Part shown: positions 19,398 through 51,400 of the stretch, piece by piece
Layout of the letters: each line of letters starts with the position of its first letter
Numbering within the stretch: position 1 is the stretch's first letter
IMG/VR virus record: IMGVR_UViG_3300045988_183585
Span: 1 to 64,000 of that record
Origin: a virus
Length of the DNA: 64,000 nt
Strand: one strand, 5' to 3'
Program-made: the position numbers and the translations under genes
Notes under the pieces: model-generated
Databases searched by the model: none
What the model saw: only the letters and a program-made list of their open reading frames with translations
What the model was told of the DNA's origin: nothing

Positions 19398-19486
19398 GGA
19401 GAGATGGCTGAGTGGTCGAAAGCACCGGCCTTGAAATCCGGCGATGTCAAAAGCATCCGTGGGTTCGAATCCCACTCTCTCCGCCA
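19398..19486 (+). tRNA. tRNA-Ser (anticodon UGA), long variable arm, encoded CCA
   Basis: GGAGAGA acceptor stem pairs with TCTCTCC. Anticodon loop is CTTGAAA. T-arm is GTGGGTTCGAATCCCAC. 3' end is GCCA. Confidence 0.85.
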
Positions 19487-19866: not shown

Positions 19867-20085
19867 ATGGAAGCTACACCTGCCATAACCTCACGGTTGC
19901 CTTATAGACATTGTGCCAAGTGCGTCAACCGTATCGTACTTCACGCATTCTCCGAAAGCCATTGTCTCGAATGCGGCAAAGTCATCATCTGCTTTAATAC
20001 CCCTGCAGACTCGCTTTGTCCTGAATGTGCCATCAAACTGAACCGCTGCATCCATTGCGGCGTTGAACTGGATAAGGAGGATTAA
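19867..20085 (+). CDS. Cys-rich zinc-ribbon protein
   Basis: AGGAGG RBS. Four CxxC pairs (CAKC, CLEC, CPEC, CIHC). Confidence 0.5.
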   Translation: MEATPAITSRLPYRHCAKCVNRIVLHAFSESHCLECGKVIICFNTPADSLCPECAIKLNRCIHCGVELDKED

Positions 20086-20088
20086 ATC

Positions 20089-20361
20089 GTGCGTAACATT
20101 GTCATCATTAAGCACCCCAAGTGCCCGCAGACATTCCTGTTTTCCGTCCCTGACGGATGTGAGCTCCATACCGGAGATTTCGTGACAGTGGACACAAAGA
20201 AGGGTAAGACCGTTGGCATCTGCGCCTCGGACAGCTTCTCCGTTCCTGAGAGTGCTTTGAAGCACATCGTTACTGCTTTTGGCGGTTCTGAGCCCCTGCG
20301 TACAGTTGTCGGTATGTTGGAGGAGCGCCCGCTGGTCAGCGCTGTTAAGGAGGCATCTTAA
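20089..20361 (+). CDS. hypothetical protein
   Basis: GTG start 3 nt after the previous stop, with a GGAGG RBS. Confidence 0.45.
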   Translation: MRNIVIIKHPKCPQTFLFSVPDGCELHTGDFVTVDTKKGKTVGICASDSFSVPESALKHIVTAFGGSEPLRTVVGMLEERPLVSAVKEAS

Positions 20362-20564
20362 TGGCCGCCGGCAAACAGCGTGCAGGCGCCGACCGACGCT
20401 ATATCGTCTTCTGTACCGCTTGCGGGCAGGTTGCCCCACTGACCGATAAGGTGGATGTGGATGGACACCTCATGTACGACTGGCACCGTCCTTGTCCTCG
20501 CTGCGGCAAGGAGGAGTGGGCGACACGATTCATCAACCCCATCGGCACCACAACCAAAAAATAA
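20361..20564 (+). CDS. small zinc-ribbon protein
   Basis: Start overlaps the upstream stop (TAATG). CTAC..CPRC. Confidence 0.5.
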   Translation: MAAGKQRAGADRRYIVFCTACGQVAPLTDKVDVDGHLMYDWHRPCPRCGKEEWATRFINPIGTTTKK

Positions 20565-20823: not shown

Positions 20824-20854
20824 GCAAAAAGCACCTCTCAAAAGAGAGGTGCTT
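20824..20854 (-). terminator. intrinsic terminator of minus-strand unit A
   Basis: agcacctctc aaaag agaggtgct, flanked by A/T runs. Confidence 0.6.
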
Positions 20855-20860
20855 TTGTGT

Positions 20861-22225
20861 TTAGAATTTGAGTTGCTCTTCAGTTATTTTTGCGATTTGC
20901 GGCAACTTGCGAGCTTCTTCGGTACGGAGCTGGAACATATCCAACTCATAATTACCGAGCCGGACGCGGTCAAGCCCATCAGCGTCTTTGAAAATATCAA
21001 AGAGTGTTTTGACGCGCAGCGCATCCTGCCTATCCCTCCAGTGTTCCGAGATGAAGTCGTAGCCTTCCTTATCGGGGCGGCAGTGATACTCCATCAGAAA
21101 CAGTGTGATGGGGTCTGTATCAGGATATGCTTCCTGCAGCATCCTTGCGCTCTCGCCACCGTGTGTATTATCCTCGGAATCGCTACGTCTGCCTGTGTCG
21201 TGATACAGTGCAGCCTCAATCAGAATTTCCTTGTCTTCCAAGTCCAGACCCTTCATATATGCCAACAGCATACACATGAACAGGACACGGCCAGCATGAG
21301 CCTTTCCGTGTAGTTTGCTTGCCATTTGGAAAGGAACGGCATCATAGTCGGCAGTCCTCTGATAGAGCCAGAAGTCATCTATCGCGCCGTCATCCACGGC
21401 CTCATTGAGCCAGTCGATACCATAGAGGGGAAAGTCTTCAACCTCCTTGATGTCATCAGGAGATACGATAATTTCAGCCTCCACGCCTTCGAAATACTCA
21501 ATGACAGAGGCTTTTTCGACTGTAGCCCGAAATACCTTCGCATTGTCAGACGGGAAGCGTGTGGCGAAGAACACGGCCACGGCAGGGTCCAGCGTCCAAG
21601 AGAATGCCTCCTCCAGACTTGCGCTTTCATCGCCGGCGCCACGGTAGACCGTCAGGGTGTCGGGATACTTCTTGAGTCCCTCCTCCGTTGCCTGAATCTG
21701 TTCCGGTGTTTTCATGCTCTTGAGCTTCAGTATGCCGTCCCGTCCAAGTGCGGAGCATCCGTAATCGGAAAAAGGGTAGACATCATAGAACAGTTTGTAA
21801 GCGCCATCAAAGCCCTCATCAACGAGCTTCTTCAGATACTCTATCCGCATCCGGTCGTTGAGTGCCGTGATGATGAAGCTACAGTTGCCTGAAGCAATTT
21901 TCTCCTTCAGTTGCTCAACAGCCCCTCGGATTTCAGGTGTTTTATCCTCGCCGTCGGCTGCCATTGTGAGACTGTGGCAGGGGAATATGACCTTATCCTT
22001 ATCCCAGTAATAGAACGGGGTGAAGCCGCAGCCATAGTAGAGGTTCTTAATGATGTCGTCGGTCAGATGAAACTTCTTCCGCAGTTCATCGGCTGTATAG
22101 AGCGCCATATAGCCGTTCCGACTGGCAATCGCCTTTGCTTTCTCTGATGTGACAGACGCAGCAGGGAGGAGGTTGCTGAACGATTCGACATTGCGGGATT
22201 TCATCACCACATCAGCGATGTTCAA
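20861..22225 (-). CDS. HD-domain phosphohydrolase with large unknown N-terminal domain
   Basis: C-terminal H..HD..H..D motifs (HGKAHAGR, ALYHDTGRR, DADGLDRVRLG). Start set at the second TTG, 9 nt after AGGAGG. Confidence 0.65.
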   Translation of the reverse strand: MNIADVVMKSRNVESFSNLLPAASVTSEKAKAIASRNGYMALYTADELRKKFHLTDDIIKNLYYGCGFTPFYYWDKDKVIFPCHSLTMAADGEDKTPEIRGAVEQLKEKIASGNCSFIITALNDRMRIEYLKKLVDEGFDGAYKLFYDVYPFSDYGCSALGRDGILKLKSMKTPEQIQATEEGLKKYPDTLTVYRGAGDESASLEEAFSWTLDPAVAVFFATRFPSDNAKVFRATVEKASVIEYFEGVEAEIIVSPDDIKEVEDFPLYGIDWLNEAVDDGAIDDFWLYQRTADYDAVPFQMASKLHGKAHAGRVLFMCMLLAYMKGLDLEDKEILIEAALYHDTGRRSDSEDNTHGGESARMLQEAYPDTDPITLFLMEYHCRPDKEGYDFISEHWRDRQDALRVKTLFDIFKDADGLDRVRLGNYELDMFQLRTEEARKLPQIAKITEEQLKF

Positions 22226-22421
22226 ACTTTTCAACCTCCTTCAACAATTTCTCTATCACTTCGGCAGCATCAGCTTCAAGGCTGTTAATGTTGCAGGCCC
22301 CGTCCACATCTCGGTATTTGCATCGCTTATCGCCGCAACCGAAGTTGTCTTCAGCGTCCGTGCCGTAGCAGCGGAGTCTTTTGACAACTCTCAGCGCGTC
22401 GCTTTTTAGCTTTGCCGTCAT
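22212..22421 (-). CDS. small 4-Cys protein
   Basis: CYGTDAEDNFGCGDKRCKYRDVDGAC. Overlaps the HD gene start. Confidence 0.35.
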   Translation of the reverse strand: MTAKLKSDALRVVKRLRCYGTDAEDNFGCGDKRCKYRDVDGACNINSLEADAAEVIEKLLKEVEKFEHR

Positions 22422-22445
22422 CGCGTTTTCTCCTTTCTTTTTTGG

Positions 22446-23492
22446 TCAAGCTCGAATGTATCGTGCCTTTTTGGACATTCCGATACGTTTAATGCTTCCT
22501 TCCTTCACCATGTGTCCCAGCACAGCTTCCACAGTGGACGGGCTGACATCAGGATGAATGGCACATATCTCTGCTTTGGAAATTGGCATCAGGCTGCCAA
22601 GTACCGTAGCTTCGATTCGCGTCATCTTCGTGATTTTCTTCCCATTGACGACTGCAAACCGCTTATCCAACTCCTTATAGCACTGATACAGTATGGACAA
22701 GAAGTTTTGAATAAATGGCGCATAGTCGTTGTTGTTCTCCATCCAGCCCTTCGAGGATTGCTCCAGTGCGTCGTAATAATACGCCTTGTGCTGGTTGATT
22801 TGTTCCTCGAAAGAAATGTACTTTCCTACATCGAAGCCGTTTTTGTAGAGCAGCAGAAGTGAGAGCAACCTCGACATTCTGCCGTTGCCGTCACGGAATG
22901 GATGGATACAAAGGAAGTCCAAAATAACGCAGGGAATAAGAAGAAGCTGGTTGATATTAGAGTTGGAACAGGCATCCAAATAGGCCAGTTCCAGTTGCTC
23001 CATAGTAGCCGGTGTCTCTGCCGCAGGTGTGGGACGAAACCTCACACGCCGCGTGCCATCCGCCGCGACTTCCAGAATCACATTGTCATCCGTTTTGTAC
23101 TGCCCACCGTTCTCGTCGCCTGCGACTGCCATCATGGTTTCATGGAGCCGCAGAATGTCAGGAACGCCGAAAGACAGGTACTCATATCCTGAATGCACAG
23201 CGTTGAGTGCATCTCTGTATCCGGCAATTTCCGCCTCATCATGGTTCAGAGGCGCACTGCTGTGGTTTACGATTTCCGCAATGCGCTTGTCGCTGGTCAC
23301 AATGCCCTCAATGGCGTTGGAGCTCTTTACTGACTGAACTCGCGCAATGGATTCCAGTTCAGTGAAGACTTTTCCAAACTCCTGCTTACGGAAGCCGGCT
23401 TCAGTACGAAGAGAGTAGATTTTGCTCGTGATGTTCACAAGGCTTGCAGGAAGCAGCCCGTTATCGAGGAAAGAATAATCAAACTTTCTCAT
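22446..23492 (-). CDS. Fic/DOC family protein
   Basis: HPFRDGNGRMSRLL is the canonical Fic motif. Start moved to MRKFDYSF, with an AAAGGAG RBS. Confidence 0.85.
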   Translation of the reverse strand: MRKFDYSFLDNGLLPASLVNITSKIYSLRTEAGFRKQEFGKVFTELESIARVQSVKSSNAIEGIVTSDKRIAEIVNHSSAPLNHDEAEIAGYRDALNAVHSGYEYLSFGVPDILRLHETMMAVAGDENGGQYKTDDNVILEVAADGTRRVRFRPTPAAETPATMEQLELAYLDACSNSNINQLLLIPCVILDFLCIHPFRDGNGRMSRLLSLLLLYKNGFDVGKYISFEEQINQHKAYYYDALEQSSKGWMENNNDYAPFIQNFLSILYQCYKELDKRFAVVNGKKITKMTRIEATVLGSLMPISKAEICAIHPDVSPSTVEAVLGHMVKEGSIKRIGMSKKARYIRA

Positions 23493-23567
23493 AACACCAG
23501 CTCCTTTCTGCACATTATTATACATCATTATATGCAGAAAATCAACTCCTTCCTGCAGCAAATGGGC

Positions 23568-23804
23568 TTAAAGAACAACATCAGCAAGAACTTCCTTGGA
23601 AACCGTGTTGTTCCACATCCGCACACTTTTCCTGATACTGCTGGCATAGATTTTTGTGCCGGCATAGGTCTTCAGGTTTGCGTGGAACGGAAACCCCTTT
23701 TTGCAACTCTGACATACAGCCTTACAATCGGGCTTGCCACAGTGGGAATACAGCTTGATTTTGCCACCACACACAGGGCAGGGAGCAATGTAACCTAAAT
23801 CCAT
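23568..23804 (-). CDS. small zinc-ribbon protein
   Basis: CPVCGG..HCGKPDC..CQSC. Start at MDLGY, with a GGAGA RBS. Confidence 0.5.
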   Translation of the reverse strand: MDLGYIAPCPVCGGKIKLYSHCGKPDCKAVCQSCKKGFPFHANLKTYAGTKIYASSIRKSVRMWNNTVSKEVLADVVL

Positions 23805-23822
23805 AGTATTATCTCCTTTCAA

Positions 23823-23850
23823 GAAGAGCCACCCCGAAGGGTGGCTCTTT
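23823..23850 (-). terminator. intrinsic terminator
   Basis: agagccaccc cgaa gggtggctct. Confidence 0.55.
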
Positions 23851-23858
23851 AGTTGTAG

Positions 23859-26087
23859 TTAGACCTTCAGCCGTTTCTTGACGATTTTGACCATTGCCTT
23901 GGGGAAGGTGGACAGGTCAGTAATGTCAAGGAACTGGTCGCCGTAAATCTTCTTGAGGTACGCTTTGTCGTCGCCGATAGCTGCTGCAACAATCTCAACA
24001 CCGCGCCGGCGATTGCGGGCTACGATGTCTTTGATGTCCTTCGCCGCAGAATCTCCACCATAGGAATCATCATTCGGCTTGCCGTCCGAGATGATAATGA
24101 GGAGCTTCGTGCGCTCAGGTCTCGCATTCAGCAGGTTCGCAACGACCTCCAGAGCTGCACCGTCACGGTTACAACCTCCGGTGGAGAGCTTGGCAAGGCG
24201 ATACTTGTCACGCTTACCAGCCTTCAGGAAGTCCGTATAGACGAACAGGTTGACCCTACCATGCATGGTCACGTTGTGGCCGTACACAGCGACAGGAACA
24301 TGAACACGCTCTGCATAGTCATGCAGGAGCATGGTGGCCTTCATAGCGGCGCCCATGCGCTGTCCGCACATGGAGCCGGACTGGTCAACGAGAACAGCCA
24401 CGGCCATGTCAGGCAGGTCCTGCGGCAGCTTGGTGTCGCTGAAGTACCGGCAGTCGGGACGCCACATATCATTGGCTACGATATCTCTACCGTACATCCG
24501 ATTTCTGCGGACATCGCCATCTTGCAGGTCTTTCAGTTCCTGCTGCATCAGCTTCGCCAAACGCTTGGAATACTGTTTCACATCCTCCATCATTTCTCCG
24601 TAGAGCTTGATGTTTGCGGGTGTTACTTCAACCTCGCGTTTGACGTCGATTTTATGACCCTTGTGCGTGGAGCTGCGGTCCATGATGTCAACATCAGCGA
24701 TGATTTGGGACTTCAAATCCTGTTCCATCTGAGCTTCGGCCATGTCACCGGCAACGGAGGAAATGATGGTCTGCAGAACATTTGCCAACATATTGTCAGC
24801 CTGCTCCTGCTTCTCATTCTTATCCTTTCCATCGCCGTTCTTACCAGCCACAGCAGCGGGAACGTTGCCCTTATTGGCATCATTACCGCCGGAACCGCTG
24901 CCGCCCTTTTTGCCCTTTTTCTTACCAGCAGACTGAGCATCCTTGGTAGCTTGCTTGGCTACGTTGGAAGCCTTCTGGTTCTTGGGCATCTGAGAGCCGC
25001 CGCCATTCTGTGCGGCCTGAGCGATTTGCTGGAGCACCTGCTGAATGGCATTTGCGCTGGGCTGGGAGACACCTCCGCCGCCCTGCTGGTTCTGGCTGTT
25101 TTGACCGCCGCCGGAGTTGCCGCCGGAAGAGGACTGGCCCTGCTGCCCCCCCTGACCGTTCTGGTCGGAGCCGGACTGCTGACCTTGCCCCTGCTGGCCT
25201 TGGCCTGCCTGAGCATTCTGCTGCTTGTCACACTTATCTATTGCATCCTTGATGTAAGGCCACATAAAGAGAAGCATCACATTGATTTGAGCATACAGCT
25301 CTTTAGGGTTATCCGTGTTGGTGGCAAGCTCAATGGCCTGTGAGATGTCTGTCAGCTTCTTGGCGTACTCATTGGTATAGAGCGTCTGCTCATCCGCAAC
25401 GAGAATTTCACCGAAGCGTGCGAACTGGAGAACGAGGCTTGTCATGATAGACAGCGGCTCATTCTTGTTATTCGTATAGCCTTCCAGCGTGTGAAGCTGT
25501 CCCTGAAGGGAAGATGCTGCCATCTCAATACCACGTGCAACAATGCCGCCGTAGTAGTCGCTCATACGCTCCTCGTCGTGTGCGTCGATGATGCAGTTGA
25601 CGAGTTCGTCCCGCAGCGACTTGAACACCTTGCGGTATTCAGGATGCTTCAGCGCCTCCTTCATCTCATCCAGTTCTGTCTCGTCGTCCGGTTCAGGCAT
25701 CCGTCCGTAGAGTGTGCCGTTCTCTTCCAATTCCTTGTCTGCCAACGCATCGGCGCGGAAGTCGTGGAATCGGATGTGGGCCAACTCATGATAGACGATA
25801 CCCATAACCGTTGCGAATCGTGAGGAGGGGAGCTTATACCACGTGATGACACTATTCGCCGTATTCTGATAAAGATTATTCCCATCAGTACAGGCGGTGA
25901 TGTCTGAGTTTGGGTTATGCATCAGAGAAACGGAGATGTGCTTGTCAAGGTCCTTCGTCATCGAATCGACTGTCGCCTGCACATGACTCCGAAACGCTTC
26001 ACTGGTGTAGATGTCAGCATCCGTGAGCTTCTCGCTCATTTCATTGGCACCCACACGGATTTGCCTCCAGATAGATTTCTGGTCCAT
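23859..26087 (-). CDS. vWA-domain protein with N-terminal HExxH putative metallopeptidase region (DUF2201-like) and Q/G-rich linker
   Basis: YHELAHIRFH (HExxH motif). Low-complexity QGQQGQGQQSGSDQNGQGGQQ linker. C-terminal VLVDQSGSM is the vWA MIDAS motif. Confidence 0.75.
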   Translation of the reverse strand: MDQKSIWRQIRVGANEMSEKLTDADIYTSEAFRSHVQATVDSMTKDLDKHISVSLMHNPNSDITACTDGNNLYQNTANSVITWYKLPSSRFATVMGIVYHELAHIRFHDFRADALADKELEENGTLYGRMPEPDDETELDEMKEALKHPEYRKVFKSLRDELVNCIIDAHDEERMSDYYGGIVARGIEMAASSLQGQLHTLEGYTNNKNEPLSIMTSLVLQFARFGEILVADEQTLYTNEYAKKLTDISQAIELATNTDNPKELYAQINVMLLFMWPYIKDAIDKCDKQQNAQAGQGQQGQGQQSGSDQNGQGGQQGQSSSGGNSGGGQNSQNQQGGGGVSQPSANAIQQVLQQIAQAAQNGGGSQMPKNQKASNVAKQATKDAQSAGKKKGKKGGSGSGGNDANKGNVPAAVAGKNGDGKDKNEKQEQADNMLANVLQTIISSVAGDMAEAQMEQDLKSQIIADVDIMDRSSTHKGHKIDVKREVEVTPANIKLYGEMMEDVKQYSKRLAKLMQQELKDLQDGDVRRNRMYGRDIVANDMWRPDCRYFSDTKLPQDLPDMAVAVLVDQSGSMCGQRMGAAMKATMLLHDYAERVHVPVAVYGHNVTMHGRVNLFVYTDFLKAGKRDKYRLAKLSTGGCNRDGAALEVVANLLNARPERTKLLIIISDGKPNDDSYGGDSAAKDIKDIVARNRRRGVEIVAAAIGDDKAYLKKIYGDQFLDITDLSTFPKAMVKIVKKRLKV

Positions 26088-26109
26088 GCGTCATTTCTCC
26101 TTTCTAAAT

Positions 26110-26532
26110 TCACTTGTGCCGGTTCTTGAAAATCTCAACGGTAAACTCAAGGCAGAAATCTGCCACCTGCAAACGGTCTTTAGGATTGCCAGTGAACACG
26201 GGGTCAATACCGTTGGCGACAGCCATTCGGTTGAGAATGCCGCATCCAGCCATAGCTGCCTCGTGTGCCGACCGGCGTCCCGCGTCGATAGTCTGCAGCG
26301 TGTCGATGAGGTCTTCGCCTTCGAGACGATTATGGGCGATGATGATGCGAGTTTCGCTCATATCAACGGTCGTCACATAGTCGAGGAAAGCACCGGCGCA
26401 GCGCCGTTCGATGTTGTCGAGCATCTTATCAGCGTACTGGACGCCGTTTTTGATGCACTCACCGACCTTAGCGCAAAGCGCCTTATAGCTCTCGTGATTA
26501 AAGAACTTGGCGTTCTCATAGTTGTGAGTCAT
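26110..26532 (-). CDS. hypothetical protein
   Basis: Start moved to MTHNYENAK, with an AAAGGAGAAAACATC RBS. The longer track ORF overlaps the upstream gene. Confidence 0.5.
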   Translation of the reverse strand: MTHNYENAKFFNHESYKALCAKVGECIKNGVQYADKMLDNIERRCAGAFLDYVTTVDMSETRIIIAHNRLEGEDLIDTLQTIDAGRRSAHEAAMAGCGILNRMAVANGIDPVFTGNPKDRLQVADFCLEFTVEIFKNRHK

Positions 26533-26611
26533 GATGTTTTCTCCTTTCTTGCTTTCGGTCCTGAAAGCAAGAAAAGAGGCTCCATGCCTCTCTTCTCCTT
26601 TCAGGACAAGC

Positions 26612-28489
26612 CTATGCCACCTTGCTGATGACCTGCGCCGCATTGGAACGAATCTCGTTCTGCTCGACGGGGTCATTCGTGCATTTGGCGATGAGGCACG
26701 TGTCAATGTAATCTTCCAAATGAGCCATGTATCTGTCGTCACACTGCACGCAGCAGACGAGAGACTCCAGCTCGCAAATAGTGCAGGAACCTTCCGTGAT
26801 TTCCTTGTCGGCGCAGTAGCTCCGAATCTGCTCAAACACGTCGTACAGAGCGTTCAGCGTCTTGTCGTCACGGCTCCAGCCGGTGTTGTACTTGATGCGC
26901 TCCAGCATAGCCTGCTTTTCGATTTCAGTGCTGTCGAAAATCATCCGGCAACGCCGAATAACAGACTGGTCGATGGGGCGGCAGGAAGCATAGCCGACGT
27001 TATCCGTGAATACCACAACGGCATCCTTCTGACGATACGTGAAACCGCCGTCCACCAGCGGAATCATAGCACCCGGCAGGTCGTACTGGTTCAGTGCGAC
27101 CATAACGCCGGAGTCCTTGATACGGCTGATTTCCTGAATCTCGCAGATGTAACCGCGAGAAACGGCTTTCACGAAAGCGGACTCGACCACCTTCACAGGG
27201 GAAGTGCAGCCGGCGCGGGCAACCAACAGCTCAGAATACTTTGCGAAGCATTCCTCAGATGTGATGCCCGTGCCATCCTCGCCCGTCATGGTCGTCCACG
27301 CGGATTCGGGGTCGAAGGAAATCTCATCGAACGTGGGAAGTTCTCCACGCGCCGCATCCACGGGATTGCAGGGGACGAACTCAGAAATCAGGTCCTTCGC
27401 CAGCATATCGGTATGGCAGGTCAGCTCCAGCCGAGGAGTGTGCAGGATGCACGCCAGAACCTTCGTGCCGGTAGACTTACCGTAACCGGTAATGCCGCGC
27501 CACAGGAAGTTGCGGAAGGGTACGCGCATATTGGACGTAGCGACGATTTTGTCGGCCATCTCGATAACCTCAGGCTGAACCTTGAAGTCATCATCGAAGG
27601 TGGGAATCAGCAGTTCCTCGTCGGGCGTCCACGGGTGTGCGTCAGCCCACGCTGCGTATCTGAGCTTGGCAGCCTTCACGGTCATGCCCTTGGTAGAGCT
27701 TGAGGTGCTGTTGGCGGCCATTGTGCCACCGATGATGGTAGGTGTGCCGACAATGATGGTGCCGTTGAAAGCGCCGTTGTTGACCTTCTGCCGCGTCAAC
27801 GTATCCATGTTCCCGTTCTGGACGTTCAGCGGGACTTTGCCCGTCTCACAGCCATAGTAGAACATATCACTGAAGATATACAGATAGTTGAAGGCGGTAG
27901 ATGCTTCCACCATGTGAGCGCCCCAATCAGCGGGGTACTTGGCGCACAGGGCGAGAATCTCGTCACGGACGGTCTTGAGTTCCGAGTTGTCATCCACGAC
28001 AGCCAACTCCGGTGCCTCGTAGTAGAGGGACAGGACTTGGGGTGTCATTGCCAGCATAGCGCCGCTGAGGTCGATGTCGTCAGACTCAGAACCGATAGAC
28101 GGAGTACCCGCCCACTGGCCGGAAGGCATCGTCACGGCGGCACCCAGTTTACCGACAGAAGGCGCATTGGTCTGGAACACCGTTTTATAGGTGAACAGCA
28201 ACGTCTTCACGGTCGTGCCGGTAGAGTTGTCGCGGAACTCAGCGCTCCACAGATTGTCAGAGACCTGCAGCAGAGCATAGTCCTCAACAAAGCCGGGGAT
28301 ACCCAGATATGCCAGAAATGCTCTGGTTGCATAGGCGTGCAGCGTAGATTGCCCCTTCATAGACGGTCTCTGCGGCGCATTCCACTTGGAGAACGTCGTC
28401 GTGCTGCGGTTAGGCATTTGGTTCAGCCCGAAGGGGAGGGTACTGATGTCGAACCCTTTCTTACTTCTGAAGAGTACACAATTTGCCAT
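26612..28489 (-). CDS. MoxR-like AAA+ ATPase with ~330-aa uncharacterised N-terminal domain
   Basis: Walker A GITGYGKST. MoxR-type Walker B / sensor region YICEIQEISRIKDSGVMVALNQYD. The start is the ATG after the conserved cassette RBS. Confidence 0.75.
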   Translation of the reverse strand: MANCVLFRSKKGFDISTLPFGLNQMPNRSTTTFSKWNAPQRPSMKGQSTLHAYATRAFLAYLGIPGFVEDYALLQVSDNLWSAEFRDNSTGTTVKTLLFTYKTVFQTNAPSVGKLGAAVTMPSGQWAGTPSIGSESDDIDLSGAMLAMTPQVLSLYYEAPELAVVDDNSELKTVRDEILALCAKYPADWGAHMVEASTAFNYLYIFSDMFYYGCETGKVPLNVQNGNMDTLTRQKVNNGAFNGTIIVGTPTIIGGTMAANSTSSSTKGMTVKAAKLRYAAWADAHPWTPDEELLIPTFDDDFKVQPEVIEMADKIVATSNMRVPFRNFLWRGITGYGKSTGTKVLACILHTPRLELTCHTDMLAKDLISEFVPCNPVDAARGELPTFDEISFDPESAWTTMTGEDGTGITSEECFAKYSELLVARAGCTSPVKVVESAFVKAVSRGYICEIQEISRIKDSGVMVALNQYDLPGAMIPLVDGGFTYRQKDAVVVFTDNVGYASCRPIDQSVIRRCRMIFDSTEIEKQAMLERIKYNTGWSRDDKTLNALYDVFEQIRSYCADKEITEGSCTICELESLVCCVQCDDRYMAHLEDYIDTCLIAKCTNDPVEQNEIRSNAAQVISKVA

Positions 28490-28694
28490 GGTCTTTTTCT
28501 CCTTTCTCCCTGCCTGTAATAAGGACTTACGGGAATCCAAAAAATGTTATATATAGAAAAAGACAGTCACTTCCCAGAAAAGGGAAGTAACTGTCTTGAT
28601 TCTTTGTGGTGACTTGAAAACGGAGATAATCTCCTTTATAAAAATAGCTTCGTAATTATAATTCTATACTACCACAGTTTGATATTTTGTCAAT
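28490..28694 (-). promoter_or_regulatory. reiterated promoter-leader cassette, copy A
   Basis: Minus strand: TTGACA - 16 nt - TGgTAGTAT, GGAGATTATCTCC palindrome, covarying hairpin plus U-run, conserved CCCGTAAGTCCTTAT..GGGAGAAAGGAG, then ATG. Confidence 0.6.
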
Positions 28695-28706
28695 CGCTTT
28701 TGCTGT

Positions 28707-28737
28707 AAAAAAAAGAAGCTCCCGAAGGAGCTTCTTT
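28707..28737 (-). terminator. intrinsic terminator ending unit B
   Basis: agaagctcc cgaa ggagcttct flanked by T/A runs. Confidence 0.6.
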
Positions 28738-28835
28738 TGAAAAAATGTGGTTTGTCTTGAAGCGAAAGAATCAAAGGATTTTTGCTCGGACGGGGGTATT
28801 TAAGATTTGATGTGTTTTCCCACAAAACTTAATTT

Positions 28836-30320
28836 TCAGGCAGGGATAAAAACCATGCCAACATTCTTTGCGAGAAGCGCACATCTCTTTGTTAAAACCC
28901 TTGCTCCTTTCGTAGAATTGTAATAGTTCGGTGTACCATTGTTCCGTCCTGATGAGCCCTGAAAGACGCCAACAGCCCCATCAAAATCCATCACCGCACC
29001 CGGCATGATACGAGCCATGTCCTTGTACTGGGGCGAGTGGGGCCTTACGGTGAGCTGCGATACCGCAGCGTCGCCGTAAGCCTCGCGGAACTCCTCCAGA
29101 CTATCGGACTTTTGCTCAATGGCCTTATGCCGGTTTGCTGCAACGACCTTGCCATCCAGAAGGTACTTCCGGTCAACCATTTGGCGGATGCAGGATTGCC
29201 GGTCGTGCCGACGGAACTGCTTCAGCTTAAAGGGTTCGACAGGTGTGGAGACCGTCGTATCCGCATCCAAAATGGAACACGCAACACAGTAGGCATCCGT
29301 GTAATGTTCTTTCGGCACGTTCTTGGCAATACGGAAGCCCTTGGTGGACTTACCATCCGTGGCATAGACATCGTAGGGAGTCTCTTCACCGAGGTACTCC
29401 ATCAGGAACGGGATAATCTGATTTAACACACTCAGGGCGTGGTACTTTTTATTCATACCGCCCTTGCTTGTGACCAGCTTCTCCGCCCACGCCTTGTCCT
29501 TGTGGACGAGGGCGTGATGCCTCTCGCAAAGCCCGCACCGGTTTGCCAGCGTCTCGCTTCCACCCTTATGGCGTGGAACAACGTGGTGATAATGGTCAAT
29601 GGGCTTCTTGCAGAACAGGCAATGTCCGTCCTGCTGTGCGTACACCGCATCCTCCACGGAACCCAGTCCGCACAGCGGACCCTGCTGGTATTCCCACCGA
29701 CGGATATTGGGATTATCCATCGCCATGAAAGCAAAGCGGTTTAGCTCCACTACCACCTTTGTGATGGGTAGAACCTTTGCAATCTTCGCAATCAGGTTAA
29801 TGTGGGTCTGCAGCAGGTGATTTGCTGTAGGTGTCAACCAACCCGCAGGGCGGCTGCGGTTGTTGAACCGCGCCTCCTTATTGCGGATATGGTGGCACAC
29901 AATGGGTGTACTGTATCCGGGGAGCAATCTCTCGACAGAACCCTCGGCGATAGTGGTTCCTGCAGCCTTCGCACGACGCTGACGCTTCCTGCGCCGGTCC
30001 AGCGTACGATGGTTTCTCCGAAACGCAGCACGCTTCTTCATCAAGAGAGGTACTTCCTTGTTGCGAGTCTCCAGATGTGCGGAGAACACGCACTGGCCGT
30101 CCTCCTTGACGACAGCAACGCCGATATTCGTCCTGCCGGGGTCGATGCCAAGAATCAGGTCTTGGGTAACATCAGGGGTATCATAGTTCAACTGGATGGT
30201 AAACGGGGTAGTGCAAACAACTCGTGCTTTCTTCTCCTTCAGGAGAAGGCGCACATAGCAATAGCGAGTTGTCGGCATCAAAGGTTTACCGTCTTTGTTT
30301 TGCACATAGACCATTGTCAT
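28836..30320 (-). CDS. iscB: IscB RNA-guided nuclease (PLMP domain, split RuvC with inserted HNH)
   Basis: GKPLMPT (PLMP domain). LGIDPGRTNIGVAV (RuvC-I). R-rich bridge helix RRNHRTLDRRRKRQRR. HNH CLFCKKPIDHYHHVVP..N..CGLCERHH. VVVELN (RuvC-II). HYTDAYCVA (RuvC-III). Confidence 0.9.
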   Translation of the reverse strand: MTMVYVQNKDGKPLMPTTRYCYVRLLLKEKKARVVCTTPFTIQLNYDTPDVTQDLILGIDPGRTNIGVAVVKEDGQCVFSAHLETRNKEVPLLMKKRAAFRRNHRTLDRRRKRQRRAKAAGTTIAEGSVERLLPGYSTPIVCHHIRNKEARFNNRSRPAGWLTPTANHLLQTHINLIAKIAKVLPITKVVVELNRFAFMAMDNPNIRRWEYQQGPLCGLGSVEDAVYAQQDGHCLFCKKPIDHYHHVVPRHKGGSETLANRCGLCERHHALVHKDKAWAEKLVTSKGGMNKKYHALSVLNQIIPFLMEYLGEETPYDVYATDGKSTKGFRIAKNVPKEHYTDAYCVACSILDADTTVSTPVEPFKLKQFRRHDRQSCIRQMVDRKYLLDGKVVAANRHKAIEQKSDSLEEFREAYGDAAVSQLTVRPHSPQYKDMARIMPGAVMDFDGAVGVFQGSSGRNNGTPNYYNSTKGARVLTKRCALLAKNVGMVFIPA

Positions 30321-30485
30321 GTGCGCTCATCTCCTTTCAGTAGTGTCTCACCTCCAGAGGAGGCGGTAGTGTCTCCCTTACCTCGGCGTATGCTTGGCAG
30401 AGCTGCGAGCTGGGAAAACCCGCAGGTGCATCCGTACCCTCTATCTGAGGGACTTACATACGTCGGTGTGGCTGTGACTATTAGA
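30321..30485 (-). ncRNA. candidate omega-RNA scaffold region upstream of iscB (within IS left end)
   Basis: A ~165-nt non-coding stretch between the left inverted repeat and the iscB start. This is where IscB omega-RNAs are encoded in known systems. No structure was verified. Confidence 0.3.
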
Positions 30486-30503
30486 CTTTTGTGGGGTTCC
30501 ACA

Positions 30504-31574
30504 TCAAATCTTAAATAGCCCTCGGACGGTATAGGTGAACGGAGCTACCCCATCATCCGAACTCTTATCCCACGATTCCTTGATTTCGTTGATGGGTACA
30601 CCTGCCACACGACGCCAAGCGACGTCATCGGCGAAACCATCAATCATCGGGATGTCCTCCAGAAGCGCATCAAGCGCACCGCCTTGGCGCAAGTCAATGT
30701 ACTTCGGATTGAGCATAACTGCTCCCTCAGAGAGCAGCATACGCGCCCAGAGCTGGTATTCCAGCGACCAACGGGACGTTTCCGTCGGCAGGTCGCCATA
30801 CAGCTCATCCAGTTTCCGCAGGATGGAAGCGCAAATCACACAACCTTCAGGATGTCCGTGATGCGTACCGAGATACGGCAGCTTTGCAAAGAACAGAGGA
30901 TTCCCAGAATACTCATCTTCCGCATAGGCGTAAAACGTCAGCTTCATGTCAGCCGCCGCGAAGAACCGGTCAGGAAGGATGTCCTTCACTTTGCAGTTGC
31001 TCCAGACGACATCATCCGAAAGGAATCTGAAGCCGAGAGGCTCCGTTCTTTCCGGTGTGAGGTACTTCCACGCCATATGGCGAACGAGGGCAACGAGCCC
31101 CAGCTCATGCCGCAGCGTCGGCACATCGTCAAAGATTCTGCGGATGTTTGCCCGCAGCTTCTCTTCGCTTCGTTCCACGCACTCGAAAAAGAGCTTACAG
31201 GACGACCCGTTCGTGAACACAACGCTCAGTGTCACGAGCCAAGGTGCGAAATCATCAGGCTTCAGAACATACTCTTTCTGCCCAGTACAGGCGACCGGCA
31301 CAAACCAACCACCCGCACGAGTTTCGCTATACGAAGCGTCCTCCGCAGCATAGGCGGTTGTTCTGAAGGCATCGTCGGTGTCCTTATCAGGAATATCAAT
31401 GGTATCGCCCTTGCAGATATACTTGAAGGGGACATACATTTCCACCTCTCTAATGCCGTCGCCATCTGCATCATCCGTATCACGGCAGTAACGCACGATA
31501 TGGACCAATACGTTCTCGTCGCAGTGCAGCTTTCGCTTATTCGAAATCAGATTATCCATGTTTTCTCCTTTCAC
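30504..31574 (-). CDS. hypothetical protein, paralog A of a tandem pair
   Basis: Shares PLFFAKLPxLG..PEG..LxKLDExYGDLPxxTxxWxLEYQLWARMLLxEGAVMLNPK with the next gene. Its last ~4 codons and stop lie inside the IscB left inverted repeat. Confidence 0.6.
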   Translation of the reverse strand: MKGENMDNLISNKRKLHCDENVLVHIVRYCRDTDDADGDGIREVEMYVPFKYICKGDTIDIPDKDTDDAFRTTAYAAEDASYSETRAGGWFVPVACTGQKEYVLKPDDFAPWLVTLSVVFTNGSSCKLFFECVERSEEKLRANIRRIFDDVPTLRHELGLVALVRHMAWKYLTPERTEPLGFRFLSDDVVWSNCKVKDILPDRFFAAADMKLTFYAYAEDEYSGNPLFFAKLPYLGTHHGHPEGCVICASILRKLDELYGDLPTETSRWSLEYQLWARMLLSEGAVMLNPKYIDLRQGGALDALLEDIPMIDGFADDVAWRRVAGVPINEIKESWDKSSDDGVAPFTYTVRGLFKI

Positions 31575-31576: not shown

Positions 31577-32614
31577 TCAGCCAGTTACGATGCAGGTAAA
31601 AGCCTCATCGCCGGACTCACTCATGTCATTCTCCCACGCCTCGGCGATTACGCTGATAGGTGTTTTGACAGCCTTTGCCCACGCAATACCGTCACCGCTG
31701 TCTTTCAGCATTTTATTACCGAATGCCAGCGTTATGAATTCGTAGGAGCAGTCGGGGAGGTCGAGGTGCTTCGGATTCAGCATGACCGCACCTTCTGCCA
31801 GCAGCATACGAGCCCAAAGTTGATACTCCAGTGCCCATTTTTCTGTGTCTTCAGGCAGGTCGCCGTACATCTCGTCCAGCTTCTGCAGCAGTTCTGCGAT
31901 TGCAGCACGTCCCTCAGGCTTGTTGTACCGTTCGCCCAAATCGGGCAGTTTGGCAAAGAACAGTGGGGACGCTGAATACTCGCCGTCGGAATAGGCGAAG
32001 AACGTCAGCTCCATGGCAGGGGAATTGAAGAACTTCTCAGAAAGAATGTCCTTCACACCGCACTGGGTGAAGTTTACGCTGTCCGAAATGAGGCGGAAGC
32101 CGAACTGCTCCGTCCACTCGCGGGTAAGGTCTCTCTTTGCCATGGCTGCAACTATGCCGGAATGCCGTCCGCAGGTGTTTTTCGGCTCAACACGCGGCTC
32201 AAATCTCGCCCGCATATTGTTGACGATAGCTTCAGTATCGTTGAGGACACTCTCAAAAAGCAGCCGGCAGCCGCGCCACGCTCCTTCGTCGGTGACGGAA
32301 AGGCTGATGATGTAGGGGGCAAAATCGGCGGGATGGAGAACCATTACCGTCTTGCCGCCGTCCTCAGTGACCTTCACAGACCAACCGCACTCGTTCCCGT
32401 ATCGCTCGTTCTTCTTGAACGAAGCATTTGTGAGAACGGAAAAGTGCAGCTCGTGACCATCGCTGAAGACGCTCACAGAATCGCTCTTGCGGATGTCCTT
32501 GAAAGGAACGAAGGTGGTCTCGAATCTGTCGTACTTAGGGTTGTGGCGGTAGACCTTAACCAACGTGTTCTCGTTGCAGAAGGATGCAGCGGCTCTGATA
32601 GATGTATTACCCAT
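31577..32614 (-). CDS. hypothetical protein, paralog B of the tandem pair
   Basis: See paralog A. It ends ..FTCIVTG, whereas A ends ..FTYTVRGLFKI. Confidence 0.6.
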   Translation of the reverse strand: MGNTSIRAAASFCNENTLVKVYRHNPKYDRFETTFVPFKDIRKSDSVSVFSDGHELHFSVLTNASFKKNERYGNECGWSVKVTEDGGKTVMVLHPADFAPYIISLSVTDEGAWRGCRLLFESVLNDTEAIVNNMRARFEPRVEPKNTCGRHSGIVAAMAKRDLTREWTEQFGFRLISDSVNFTQCGVKDILSEKFFNSPAMELTFFAYSDGEYSASPLFFAKLPDLGERYNKPEGRAAIAELLQKLDEMYGDLPEDTEKWALEYQLWARMLLAEGAVMLNPKHLDLPDCSYEFITLAFGNKMLKDSGDGIAWAKAVKTPISVIAEAWENDMSESGDEAFTCIVTG

Positions 32615-35822: not shown

Positions 35823-36001
35823 GGTGTTTCTCCTTTCTTTGTTGTCGAAAAATGCAATAAATATATAAAAAAAGACAGCTACCCCAAGATTGGGATAACT
35901 GTCTGAATTTATGTGGTGACTTGGAAAACGGAGATAATCTCCTTTATAAAAATAGCTTCGTAATTATAATTCTATACTACCACAGTTTGATATTTTGTCA
36001 A
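35823..36001 (-). promoter_or_regulatory. reiterated promoter-leader cassette, copy B (lacks the CCCGTAAGTCC segment)
   Basis: Same TTGACA/TAGTAT promoter, palindrome and covarying hairpin as copy A. Confidence 0.6.
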
Positions 36002-36050
36002 TCGTTTTAGGTATCAAATTGCGTTTACTCTATTTGCACTGTTTTTTGAT

Positions 36051-42082: not shown

Positions 42083-42096
42083 TGATTCTGTGGGTA

Positions 42097-46698: not shown

Positions 46699-46716
46699 TC
46701 GTTTTAGTCGAAAAGA

Positions 46717-51390: not shown

Positions 51391-51400
51391 GTCTCTCCTT

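What the first reader, a model, noticed from the sequence alone, without database searches (positions are those of the whole stretch)
20861..28694. Operon of MoxR-like AAA+ (novel N-domain), vWA/HExxH-metallopeptidase, Fic and HD proteins plus zinc ribbons: candidate NTP-dependent conflict/defense module
One cassette promoter drives the whole unit. First gene is a 625-aa ATPase whose C-terminal half is MoxR/AAA_5-like but whose 330-aa N-terminal half is unrecognised. Next come a 140-aa hypothetical, a 742-aa vWA protein with an HELAH metallopeptidase-like N-region and a Q/G low-complexity linker, and a zinc-ribbon protein. Then follow a Fic (AMPylase-type HPFxDGNGR) protein, a 4-Cys mini-protein, and an HD hydrolase with a large unknown N-domain. 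MoxR-vWA pairs coupled to effectors are known in conflict systems, but this exact gene set and the N-domains look undescribed.
Basis: inference. Interest (0 to 1): 0.6.

Follow-up and report, generated by a model that had tools for sequence, protein, structure and literature searches.

The report
Composite plasmid operon: MoxR–vWA pair plus cargo
The seven genes are real and share one promoter, but only the ATPase–vWA pair travels together in other genomes. The unit looks like one operon of a probably conjugative gut element's newly-arrived-DNA ("establishment") gene set, not a new seven-gene defence system.

Summary
All seven minus-strand genes exist as described (20861-28489). They lie behind a promoter/leader cassette (28540-28735) that recurs eight times in the window.

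The conserved unit is only the AAA+ ATPase plus the vWA protein, adjacent in 38/38 informative related loci.
- The vWA protein has an intact MIDAS motif and an invariant N-terminal HExxH…DxHDE region.
- A MoxR plus metallopeptidase-vWA pair was already described in jumbo phages.
- CobS/CobT membership fails.

DUF3232 is lineage-specific and hypervariable. The Lar-like zinc ribbon, class II Fic, 4-Cys peptide and HD protein occur only in this element lineage. They form a cargo block with its own promoter-like site and terminator.

The HD protein's "unknown N-domain" carries conserved YRG / SWT / ExE motifs. It is therefore probably an ADP-ribosyltransferase fused to an HD phosphodiesterase, and it occurs elsewhere without the ATPase or vWA.

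Context points to a conjugative element rather than a phage: thioester/TQ adhesins, a topoisomerase, and TrbC pilins in relatives. The repeated cassettes resemble the pLS20 establishment regulons.

Verdict: a new variant of a known kind, of moderate interest.

The parts
28540..28735 (-). Regulatory cassette. It comprises the upstream terminator, an invariant promoter (28661-28693), a conserved leader, and an RBS region ending at the ATPase ATG.
   Evidence: There are eight copies in the window. The promoter 33-mer is identical at 6 sites plus 1 with one mismatch, with 0 expected by chance. The cassette sits at the same distance upstream of the ATPase in all 7 same-lineage loci.
28560..28597 (-). 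Terminator-like hairpin inside the leader (16-bp stem plus a T-run), between the promoter and the ATPase start.
   Evidence: The stem is kept through compensatory changes between cassette copies.
26612..28489 (-). 625-aa MoxR-class AAA+ ATPase (CbbQ/NorQ-like core from about residue 290) with a private N-terminal domain (1-285).
   Evidence: - AF2 model pLDDT 93.
- Profile against PDB: midasin 6e-11, CbbQ 1.4e-6, CobS 0.24.
- Walker A is invariant. Walker B reads ExQE, with D replaced by Q.
- The N-domain finds only 14 relatives among 1.84 billion representatives.
26110..26532 (-). 140-aa DUF3232 protein inserted between the ATPase and the vWA gene. It is specific to this lineage and hypervariable.
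   Evidence: - Pfam DUF3232 at 1.1e-15.
- PDB 2rdc, an uncharacterised protein, at 5e-8.
- Present only in the window lineage and L009.
- A 68%-identical allele sits between a 100%-identical ATPase and vWA gene in L001.
23859..26087 (-). 742-aa vWA co-chaperone. It has an N-terminal HExxH…DxHDE domain, a Q/G-rich linker, a helical segment and a C-terminal vWA domain with MIDAS DxSGS.
   Evidence: - Pfam CobT_C at 3.3e-12 and VWA at 3.3e-10.
- PDB CobT at 4.5e-11 and NorD at 3.7e-8, over the vWA domain only.
- H100, E101, H104, D168, H170, D171, E172 and D568, S570, S572 are invariant in six homologs down to 26% identity.
23823..23850 (-). GC-rich hairpin just after the vWA stop codon, with a weak T-tract. 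It marks the boundary between the core and the cargo block.
23568..23804 (-). 78-aa zinc-ribbon protein, weakly Lar-like.
   Evidence: PHROG 599, 'Lar-like restriction alleviation', at 5.4e-6. Pfam Lar_restr_allev scores 18.3 bits, below the cutoff of 28.6. Cys pattern.
23517..23545 (-). Promoter-like site TTGATT-17-TATAAT in the 75-nt gap before Fic.
   Evidence: This is a consensus match only.
22446..23492 (-). 348-aa class II Fic protein (SoFic-like), with the active-site motif, an N-terminal inhibitory motif and a C-terminal region.
   Evidence: - Pfam Fic at 2.1e-15.
- PADLOC SoFic at 7.6e-35.
- NCBIfam SoFic equivalog scores 37.6 bits, far below the cutoff of 550.
- HPFRDGNGRMSR at residue 197 and SNAIEG at residue 58.
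22212..22421 (-). 69-aa 4-Cys protein of unknown function, tightly coupled to the next gene.
   Evidence: No family hit.
20861..22234 (-). Three-part protein of about 447-457 aa. It has an N-terminal domain, a putative R-S-E ADP-ribosyltransferase domain (about 175-260) and a C-terminal HD phosphodiesterase (about 290-447).
   Evidence: - AF2 model pLDDT 95.
- YRG, SW and ExE are at least 90% conserved in 78 homologs and in standalone ~220-aa relatives.
- Weak hits to the ART toxin TreX (E 0.11) and to ADPrib_exo_Tox (one member, 0.0014).
20827..20856 (-). Strong intrinsic terminator closing the unit, 5 nt after the HD gene stop codon.

Best explanation
The region is a composite operon on a large, probably conjugative, element of human-gut Clostridia. 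It is one of about eight co-directional operons that each start with the same promoter/leader cassette. That layout matches an establishment-type regulon, expressed to help the element settle in a cell.

The operon has two parts of separate origin.

(1) A conserved machine.
- A MoxR-class AAA+ ATPase, inferred to form a hexamer, works with a vWA adaptor.
- The adaptor's MIDAS site would grip a client protein. Its N-terminal HExxH domain would bind zinc and cleave or otherwise process that client, in the manner of CbbQ-CbbO, NorQ-NorD and CobS-CobT.
- In this lineage a small hypervariable DUF3232 protein is inserted between the two genes.

(2) A lineage-specific cargo block of independent host-modifying enzymes.
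- A Lar-like zinc ribbon.
- An autoinhibited class II Fic AMPylase.
- A 4-Cys peptide.
- A putative ADP-ribosyltransferase fused to an HD phosphodiesterase.

Shown here: gene content, motifs, folds, neighbourhood statistics and the repeated cassette.

Inferred: hexamer formation, protease activity, the client, timing of expression, and that the element is conjugative.
For: Core pair.
- The ATPase and vWA genes are adjacent in all 38 loci with enough sequence. Partners downstream fall into three types and differ between them (contexts).
- The ATPase fold matches CbbQ and NorQ. The vWA domain matches CobT and NorD.
- HExxH, DxHDE and the MIDAS motif are invariant.
- The same architecture, MoxR plus metallopeptidase-vWA, is described in jumbo phages (PMC7824862).

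Cargo status.
- The nearest diverged relative, L009 (67% ATPase identity), has ATPase-DUF3232-vWA followed by different genes.
- HD-protein homologs lie in other mobile contexts without the pair.
- A hairpin and a promoter-like site mark the junction, and a terminator marks the end.

Element type.
- The window and its flank carry TQ/SpaA/thioester adhesins and a topoisomerase.
- Relatives carry TrbC/T4SS pilin, ParA, integrase, an ERF-like protein, a primase-like protein and SSB next to the pair.
- PHROG matches are scarce and mostly to families of unknown function.

Regulon.
- Eight near-identical cassettes precede eight operons.
- This parallels the EGeRS-preceded establishment operons of the pLS20 plasmid family (PMC8708921).
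Against: - No relaxase, coupling protein or T4SS ATPase was found within the 64-kb window, and IMG/VR files the contigs as viral. So neither conjugation nor a 'leading region' position is shown for this element.
- The pair also occurs in ordinary chromosomal contexts in Lachnospiraceae, together with a DUF4116 repeat protein. Its basic role may therefore be housekeeping rather than conflict.
- Walker B Asp is replaced by Gln across the family, so ATP hydrolysis is not assured.
- The HExxH domain matches no peptidase family.
- The ART assignment rests on motifs and two weak hits. Pfam, PDB profile and Foldseek searches did not confirm it.
- Co-transcription of all seven genes has not been tested.
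Confidence: 0.55

Rival explanations
1. This is the first reader's view: one integrated NTP-dependent defence system. The MoxR-vWA pair would sense an invader and release or activate the Fic and HD effectors to abort infection.
For: - The genes share one strand and one cassette promoter.
- The Fic protein hits the PADLOC SoFic model at 7.6e-35.
- vWA-MoxR conflict systems with effectors are known (PMC7159879).
- The DUF3232 allele is hypervariable between invariant neighbours.
Against: - The effectors are not co-conserved with the pair: 0 of 31 loci outside the window lineage, apart from one weak Fic match 3.5 kb away.
- HD homologs occur without the pair.
- No VMAP, iSTAND, FtsH or beta-propeller third component was seen, and no effector is fused to the vWA protein.
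- PADLOC has no hit for the ATPase, vWA or HD protein.
- The junction carries its own hairpin and promoter-like site.
Confidence: 0.08
2. The pair is a CobS/CobT-type cobaltochelatase motor, an auxiliary metabolic gene pair that boosts cobalamin synthesis together with host CobN.
For: - Pfam CobT_C at 3.3e-12 and PHROG 17276 'CobT' at 6.5e-10.
- The best PDB sequence hit of the vWA domain is CobT.
- Distant phage homologs are annotated as CobT.
- The cobST-in-viruses hypothesis is published (PMC8651126).
Against: - The TIGR01651 CobT equivalog scores 23.8 bits against a cutoff of 759.
- The similarity covers only the vWA domain.
- The ATPase profile matches CobS at only E 0.24, against midasin at 6e-11 and CbbQ at 1.4e-6.
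- No CobN or cobalamin genes appear in any neighbourhood.
- The same source notes that phage 'cobT' is often annotated as a peptidase instead.
Confidence: 0.04
3. The pair is an assembly chaperone for a large structure of the element, such as the conjugative pilus, T4SS, adhesins or a virion. The HExxH domain would process structural proteins, and the other genes would be unrelated cargo.
For: - In type B relatives the pair lies a few genes upstream of TrbC pilins and large T4SS-like genes.
- Jumbo-phage MoxR/metallopeptidase-vWA pairs and the ATV MoxR-vWA pair are proposed or shown to act in virion or tail assembly (PMC7824862).
- Giant adhesins lie nearby.
Against: - In the window the pair sits in the cassette-regulated array of unknown genes, not next to structural genes.
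- Chromosomal copies have no such structures nearby.
- The immediate type B neighbours are ERF-like and primase-like DNA-establishment genes.
Confidence: 0.18
4. The pair is a housekeeping metallocentre or protein-remodelling chaperone of Clostridia that mobile elements have borrowed. It would have no conflict role.
For: - Type A loci sit in conserved chromosomal contexts, always with a DUF4116 repeat protein.
- The closest structural relatives, CbbQ, NorQ and CobS, all mature enzymes.
Against: - The N-domain evolves very fast and is private to the family.
- The family recurs on mobile elements with varying partners.
- The DUF3232 alleles are hypervariable.
Confidence: 0.12

Closest known systems
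MoxR AAA+ / vWA adaptor pairs that remodel a client: CbbQ-CbbO, NorQ-NorD, CobS-CobT
   Same: - The adjacent partner is about 700 aa with a C-terminal vWA/MIDAS domain. It is most similar to CobT and NorD.
- A long linker separates the N-domain from the vWA domain.
   Different: - The ATPase has an extra ~285-aa private N-domain and a Walker B D→Q change.
- The partner's N-domain carries HExxH…DxHDE.
- No Rubisco, NOR or CobN client gene is nearby.
- Scores are far below the CobS/CobT equivalog cutoffs.
MoxR plus metallopeptidase-vWA pair of group 2.2 jumbo phages (Iyer et al. 2021, PMC7824862)
   Same: The two-gene architecture is the same: a MoxR ATPase next to a vWA co-chaperone with an N-terminal HExxH-type domain, encoded on a mobile element.
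   Different: - Here it occurs in Clostridial, apparently conjugative, elements and chromosomes, not T4-like phages.
- Direct homology of the N-domains was not tested.
- The DUF3232 insert and the ATPase N-domain are not described there.
vWA-MoxR ternary conflict systems (Kaur et al. 2020, PMC7159879)
   Same: A MoxR-vWA chaperone core sits next to enzymatic effector-like genes.
   Different: - There is no VMAP, iSTAND, FtsH or beta-propeller third component.
- No effectors are fused C-terminally to the vWA protein.
- The effector genes are not co-conserved.
- The hosts are unicellular gut Clostridia.
Establishment regulons of pLS20-family conjugative plasmids (EGeRS1/2; Val-Calvo et al. 2021, PMC8708921)
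   Same: Several co-directional operons of highly variable, mostly unknown genes are each preceded by a near-identical structured regulatory sequence. A methylase-like gene is among them.
   Different: - The cassette here is shorter, about 200 nt against 420-750 bp. It contains a canonical promoter plus a terminator-like leader.
- No sequence relationship was tested.
- Conjugative transfer of this element is not shown.
SidE-family effectors of Legionella (mART plus PDE domains)
   Different: - The domain order is reversed.
- There are no DUB or coiled-coil parts, and no ubiquitin in the hosts.
- The ART fold itself is unconfirmed.
SoFic / class II Fic AMPylases
   Same: It has the Fic motif HPFRDGNGR, the inhibitory motif SNAIEG placed N-terminal of it, and a PADLOC SoFic hit at 7.6e-35.
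   Different: The NCBIfam SoFic equivalog scores 37.6 bits against a cutoff of 550. It sits on a mobile element behind an establishment-type promoter rather than in a host defence island.

Membership tests
MoxR-class AAA+ (AAA_5; CbbQ/NorQ/CobS/midasin clade) | AAA+ fold closest to MoxR members | tested here: met
   [not shown]
MoxR-class AAA+ (AAA_5; CbbQ/NorQ/CobS/midasin clade) | Walker A GxxGxGK[ST] | tested here: met
   GITGYGKS at residue 332. G337, K338 and S339 are invariant in 112 sequences.
MoxR-class AAA+ (AAA_5; CbbQ/NorQ/CobS/midasin clade) | Walker B hhhhDE | tested here: not met
   The family reads E-x-Q-E. Q452 aligns to the Walker B Asp of midasin, while Glu453 is kept.
MoxR-class AAA+ (AAA_5; CbbQ/NorQ/CobS/midasin clade) | Pfam AAA_5 at or above the gathering score | tested here: not met
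   19.8 bits against a cutoff of 22. A few homologs carry a precomputed PF07728 hit.
MoxR-class AAA+ (AAA_5; CbbQ/NorQ/CobS/midasin clade) | Adjacent vWA/MIDAS partner gene | tested here: met
   38 of 38 loci with downstream sequence.
CobS/CobT aerobic cobaltochelatase | CobT equivalog score (TIGR01651) | tested here: not met
   23.8 bits against a cutoff of 759, and the match covers only the vWA domain.
CobS/CobT aerobic cobaltochelatase | ATPase specifically CobS-like | tested here: not met
   No NCBIfam hit. The profile against PDB gives CobS E 0.24, versus midasin 6e-11 and CbbQ 1.4e-6.
CobS/CobT aerobic cobaltochelatase | CobN or cobalamin-pathway genes associated | tested here: not met
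   None appears among the Pfam-annotated neighbours, or in the window scans.
vWA-MoxR ternary conflict systems (Kaur 2020) | Conserved third component (VMAP, iSTAND, FtsH or beta-propeller) | tested here: not met
   The operon proteins have no such Pfam hit. The third genes in relatives are a DUF4116 protein, unknown ~300-aa proteins or DUF3232.
vWA-MoxR ternary conflict systems (Kaur 2020) | Variable effector domains fused C-terminal to the vWA domain | tested here: not met
   The vWA domain is the C-terminus in all six aligned homologs.
MoxR + metallopeptidase-vWA pair (jumbo phage type, Iyer 2021) | vWA co-chaperone with an N-terminal HExxH domain next to a MoxR ATPase | tested here: met
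   H100, E101 and H104 plus D168xHDE172 are invariant down to 26% identity. Adjacency is shown.
MoxR + metallopeptidase-vWA pair (jumbo phage type, Iyer 2021) | Homology of the N-domain to the phage metallopeptidase domain, and peptidase activity | not tested
Pfam gives no peptidase hit, and hhalign to a DUF2201_N protein is negative.
Fic/DOC AMPylase, class II (SoFic-like) | Fic motif HxFx[D/E]GN[G/K]RxxR and a Pfam Fic hit | tested here: met
   HPFRDGNGRMSR at residue 197. Pfam Fic scores 57.8 bits against a cutoff of 24.
Fic/DOC AMPylase, class II (SoFic-like) | Inhibitory [ST]xxxE[GN] motif N-terminal of the Fic core | tested here: met
   SNAIEG at residue 58.
Fic/DOC AMPylase, class II (SoFic-like) | SoFic equivalog score | tested here: not met
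   NF046030 scores 37.6 bits against a cutoff of 550. The PADLOC SoFic HMM does hit, at 7.6e-35.
R-S-E clade ADP-ribosyltransferase | Arg, Ser-x-[ST] and [QE]xE catalytic motifs in order on beta-strands | tested here: met
   YRG, SWT and ExE are at least 90% conserved in 78 fused homologs and 20 standalone homologs. They lie on predicted strands 183-190, 202-204 and 244-247.
R-S-E clade ADP-ribosyltransferase | Significant sequence or fold match to a known ART | tested here: inconclusive
   - TreX toxin at E 0.11.
- ADPrib_exo_Tox in 1 of 32 members at 0.0014.
- Nothing.
HD-domain phosphohydrolase / phosphodiesterase | H…HD…D metal ligands and the HD fold | tested here: met
   [not shown]
Lar restriction-alleviation protein | Pfam Lar_restr_allev at or above the gathering score | tested here: not met
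   18.3 bits against a cutoff of 28.6. PHROG 599 hits at 5.4e-6.
Establishment regulon of a conjugative plasmid (pLS20-type) | Several operons each preceded by a near-identical regulatory sequence | tested here: met
   Eight cassettes on one strand across 28.5-62.6 kb.
Establishment regulon of a conjugative plasmid (pLS20-type) | Element is conjugative and the genes are expressed early in the recipient | not testable with these tools
   Only indirect evidence is available: adhesins and a topoisomerase here, and TrbC pilins in relatives.

The most novel reading that the evidence does not exclude
Two linked possibilities remain open.

(a) The seventh protein may be a SidE-like two-step enzyme. 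An R-S-E ADP-ribosyltransferase would mark a host target with NAD+. The fused HD phosphodiesterase would then convert or cross-link the mark (phosphoribosylation), or destroy nucleotide immune signals.

(b) The MoxR/HExxH-vWA machine, with its hypervariable DUF3232 subunit, may be an ATP-driven protease that removes a recipient-cell defence protein during establishment of the element.

Either would be a new class of anti-defence mechanism carried by very prevalent human-gut mobile elements.
Probability: 0.12. Interest if true: 0.75.

Novelty: new variant of a known kind. Interest (0 to 1): 0.4.

Why it matters
- The element is very common in human gut metagenomes. The exact ATPase sequence is indexed in 539 blocks of the assembly collection.
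- Most of its genes are uncharacterised. Placing this operon in a cassette-controlled regulon gives a concrete, testable frame for dozens of them.
- The strictly conserved MoxR/HExxH-vWA pair is a tractable two-protein machine whose client is unknown.
- The putative ART-HD fusion, found across Firmicutes mobile elements, could extend SidE-like or signal-degrading chemistry beyond Legionella.
- The seven-gene set should not be entered into defence-system catalogues as one system.

Tried and rejected
- Near-identity DNA searches of the operon against the phage and plasmid collections found nothing.
- A tblastn of the ATPase against plasmids found only an unrelated Enterococcus AAA protein.
- An Rfam scan found only the tRNA, so neither the cassette leader nor the RNA upstream of IscB matches any known family.
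- hhalign of the vWA family against a neighbouring DUF2201_N/vWA-like protein aligned only the MIDAS stretch, so the HExxH domain is not DUF2201_N.
- Relaxed Pfam scans of the vWA N-domain, the ATPase N-domain and the type B partner proteins gave nothing. The exceptions were DUF4116 for the type A 252-aa partner and a weak Toprim hit for the 485-aa partner.
- Four further attempts to confirm the ART fold failed or were swamped by HD hits: a Foldseek PDB search, a Pfam scan, a PDB profile search and a homolog search for annotated relatives.
- The 'phage' record MT835792, which holds a related pair, showed SSB, ligase, a histidine kinase and transporters, with no phage hallmark among the ten ORFs scanned.
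- One look-up of a window protein failed because my chosen start codon was not on record.

Full report
**Observation**

Seven minus-strand ORFs fill 20861-28489:

| Gene | Coordinates | Size | Family evidence |
|---|---|---|---|
| AAA+ ATPase | 26612-28489 | 625 aa | Pfam AAA_5, 19.8 bits (cutoff 22) |
| DUF3232 protein | 26110-26532 | 140 aa | Pfam DUF3232, 1.1e-15 |
| vWA protein | 23859-26087 | 742 aa | Pfam CobT_C 3.3e-12, VWA 3.3e-10 |
| Zinc ribbon | 23568-23804 | 78 aa | PHROG Lar-like, 5.4e-6 |
| Fic | 22446-23492 | 348 aa | Pfam Fic, 2.1e-15 |
| 4-Cys protein | 22212-22421 | 69 aa | none |
| HD protein | 20861-22204/22234 | about 447-457 aa | Pfam HD, 22.9 bits (cutoff 22) |

The 'cassette promoter' is real. 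The 33-mer TTGACAAAATATCAAACTGTGGTAGTATAGAAT at 28661-28693 is identical at six sites, differs by one mismatch at a seventh, and has a more divergent eighth copy. No match is expected by chance.

**Operon anatomy**

The cassette (28540-28735) has five parts in order:
- the terminator of the upstream operon;
- the invariant promoter;
- an invariant leader with a small hairpin;
- a 16-bp terminator-like hairpin with a T-run (28560-28597), whose stem is kept by compensatory changes between copies;
- a conserved segment predicted to pair with the RBS.

Inside the unit, gene gaps are short, with two exceptions:
- a GC hairpin directly after the vWA stop codon (23823-23850);
- a 75-nt gap before Fic that holds TTGATT-17-TATAAT (23517-23545).

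A strong terminator follows the HD gene (20827-20856). Co-transcription of all seven genes is plausible but not shown. The sequence suggests a core and a separately promoted downstream block.

**What is conserved**

I compared 41 related loci from viral contigs, metagenomes and GTDB genomes. The ATPase is followed by the vWA gene in every locus with enough sequence, 38 of 38. Everything else varies, in three patterns:
- Type A: Lachnospiraceae, Eubacterium and Roseburia chromosomes. The pair is followed by a 252-aa DUF4116 repeat protein.
- Type B: integrated or plasmid-like elements of Oscillospiraceae and Pseudoflavonifractor. The pair is followed by a ~300-aa protein, an ERF-like protein and a Zn-ribbon/Toprim-like 485-aa protein, then TrbC-type pilins.
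- Type C: the window lineage and L009. DUF3232 is inserted between the ATPase and the vWA gene.

The zinc ribbon, Fic, 4-Cys and HD genes appear only in the seven near-identical copies of this same element. L009 is the nearest diverged relative (67% ATPase identity). It has ATPase-DUF3232-vWA followed by HEPN/nucleotidyltransferase and other genes instead.

**The core pair: the ATPase**

- The AF2 model is confident (pLDDT 93).
- The family profile hits midasin (6e-11) and CbbQ (1.4e-6), but CobS only at E 0.24.
- Walker A, the sensor region TDN and the RR pair are conserved.
- The Walker B Asp is replaced by Gln in at least 90% of 112 sequences (ExQE). I could not judge what this does to hydrolysis.
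- The N-terminal ~285 residues are predicted to fold, as a four-strand sheet plus a helical bundle. They match no Pfam or PDB sequence.
- The N-domain is poorly conserved. In an exhaustive search of 1.84 billion representatives it finds only 14 proteins, almost all from the same ATPase family or short sequences likely to be fragments.
- Its fold could not be compared on its own, because whole-model searches are dominated by the AAA+ core.

**The core pair: the vWA protein**

- It matches CobT and NorD only across the vWA domain.
- Across six homologs down to 26% identity, several positions are invariant: HExxH (H100, E101, H104), D168xHDE172 and the MIDAS DxSGS motif.
- The N-domain has no Pfam match and is not DUF2201_N.
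- The architecture is already in the literature. Iyer et al. 2021 reported MoxR plus a vWA co-chaperone fused to an N-terminal metallopeptidase domain in group 2.2 jumbo phages, and proposed an assembly and processing role (PMC7824862). Another paper notes that phage 'cobT' is often annotated as a peptidase (PMC8651126).
- Membership of true CobS/CobT fails. TIGR01651 scores 23.8 bits against a cutoff of 759, and no CobN appears nearby.

**DUF3232**

This protein has a solved but uncharacterised relative, 2rdc. In locus L001 a 68%-identical allele sits between a 100%-identical ATPase and vWA gene. It is therefore a locally hypervariable component.

**The cargo block: Fic**

- It is a class II Fic. 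It has the inhibitory motif SNAIEG at residue 58 and a canonical active site.
- It hits the PADLOC SoFic model at 7.6e-35, but not the NCBIfam SoFic equivalog, where it scores 37.6 bits against a cutoff of 550.

**The cargo block: the HD protein**

- The model is very confident (pLDDT 95).
- The 'unknown N-domain' contains, at about 175-260, the motifs YRG, SWT and ExE. They are at least 90% conserved in 78 homologs and lie on predicted strands in the order expected for R-S-E ADP-ribosyltransferases.
- The same ~100-residue module occurs alone in ~190-230-aa proteins that keep the motifs. It matches two PHROG families of unknown function.
- Direct confirmation is weak: TreX ART toxin at E 0.11 and one ADPrib_exo_Tox hit at 0.0014. 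Further Pfam, PDB and Foldseek attempts were negative.
- I rate the ART call at about 0.6.
- Full-length homologs occur in other mobile contexts with no ATPase, vWA or Fic gene. One context is ligase/UvrD/metallophosphatase. Another is a run of small genes in the Bacillus cereus group next to DUF3846.

**Element and regulon**

IMG/VR lists the contigs as viral, at 113-192 kb, but the content points elsewhere:
- giant TQ-ester/SpaA/thioester adhesins;
- a topoisomerase, a DNA/RNA endonuclease, flotillin, PemK, YopX, DUF4314 and a DUF4942 methylase-like protein;
- few PHROG matches, mostly to families of unknown function.

Relatives of the pair sit beside TrbC pilins, ParA, integrase and SSB. 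No relaxase or T4SS ATPase lies in the window, so conjugation is inferred rather than shown.

The eight cassette-headed, co-directional operons closely parallel the 'establishment regulons' of pLS20-family plasmids. There, multiple operons of variable and mostly unknown genes are each preceded by a near-identical structured regulatory sequence (PMC8708921). The cassette is confined to this element lineage.

**Mechanism proposed**

The first step below rests on shown facts. The other three are inferred.
1. Shown: one promoter/leader cassette sits upstream of the unit, and its leader contains a terminator-like hairpin. This implies conditional read-through.
2. Inferred by analogy with CbbQ-CbbO, NorQ-NorD and CobS-CobT: the ATPase forms a ring that engages the vWA adaptor. 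The adaptor's MIDAS site binds an acidic residue of a client.
3. Inferred from the invariant motifs: the HExxH…DxHDE domain binds metal and cleaves or processes that client. DUF3232 may tune specificity or act as a decoy.
4. Inferred: the cargo enzymes act independently on host targets, Fic by AMPylation and ART-HD by ADP-ribosylation plus phosphodiester hydrolysis.

Because the pair also lives in ordinary chromosomal contexts, its ancestral job may be housekeeping remodelling that mobile elements later recruited.

**Verdict**

The sequence observation stands. The interpretation as one new NTP-dependent defence module does not. The CobS/CobT cofactor reading is also rejected.

What remains is a new variant of a known MoxR/metallopeptidase-vWA pair. 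It is embedded, together with unrelated cargo effectors, in a cassette-controlled regulon of a very prevalent gut element.

The most interesting loose ends are the putative ART-HD fusion, the hypervariable DUF3232 protein and the repeated leader. Interest is 0.4.

Noticed in passing
window 28540-28735, 35848-36043, 41929-42124, 46545-46740, 51187-51382, ~55890-56130, 59319-59514, 62396-62591 (minus strand): There are eight copies of a ~200-nt regulatory cassette. Each has an invariant promoter, an invariant leader, a terminator-like hairpin with compensatory changes, and a segment predicted to pair with the RBS. Each copy heads a co-directional operon. No Rfam family matches. The layout resembles the EGeRS establishment regulons of pLS20 plasmids and suggests antitermination or attenuation control.
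   Followed up: partly
window 28794-30520 (minus strand; ORF 28836-30320): A 1.73-kb insertion carries an IscB-like gene: RRXRR at 3.5e-50 plus HNH, 494 aa, with an N-terminal 'KPLMPT' stretch. About 200 nt of upstream non-coding sequence could encode its guide RNA. The insertion is absent from otherwise ~99%-identical contigs (L014-L016). It lies between the preceding operon's last gene and the cassette.
   Followed up: partly
window 26110-26532; L001 11956-12378: The DUF3232 gene is locally hypervariable. A 68%-identical allele lies between a 100%-identical ATPase and vWA gene in another copy of the element. L009 carries a third allele. The central and C-terminal motifs stay fixed.
   Followed up: partly
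window 20861-22234, residues ~175-260; proteins P0207-P0230: The YRG/SWT/ExE module of the HD protein also exists as standalone ~190-230-aa proteins with no Pfam annotation. It may be an unrecognised ART-like family (PHROG 4776 and 25265, 'unknown function').
   Followed up: partly
window 26612-28489, residues 450-453: The Walker B motif reads E-x-Q-E across the whole ATPase family. The Asp is replaced by Gln, and there is an invariant Glu two residues upstream. This is unusual for MoxR-class AAA+ proteins.
   Followed up: partly
window 30504-31574 and 31577-32614; 48856-55882: There are tandem arrays of paralogous ~340-400-aa proteins with no Pfam or PHROG match (repeat families D14-D18). Another copy of the element (L050) has different content in this part of the array and lacks the runs of ~340-400-aa genes.
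   Followed up: no
window 12-4685; L049 1-9144: Giant surface adhesins carry repeated TQ-ester, SpaA and thioester (TED) domains (1511-3788 aa). This is typical of Gram-positive mating or adhesion proteins.
   Followed up: no
window 19398-19486 and 19867-20564 (plus strand): A tRNA-Ser(UGA) gene and three small plus-strand ORFs, the first and third Cys-rich, lie just beyond the operon terminator. Other copies of the element have an extra 725-aa and 132-aa gene pair here.
   Followed up: no
L005/L008/L027-L037 (type A loci): In Lachnospiraceae and Eubacterium chromosomes the ATPase-vWA pair is always followed by a 252-aa DUF4116 repeat protein. This is a candidate third subunit or client of the chromosomal version.
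   Followed up: partly
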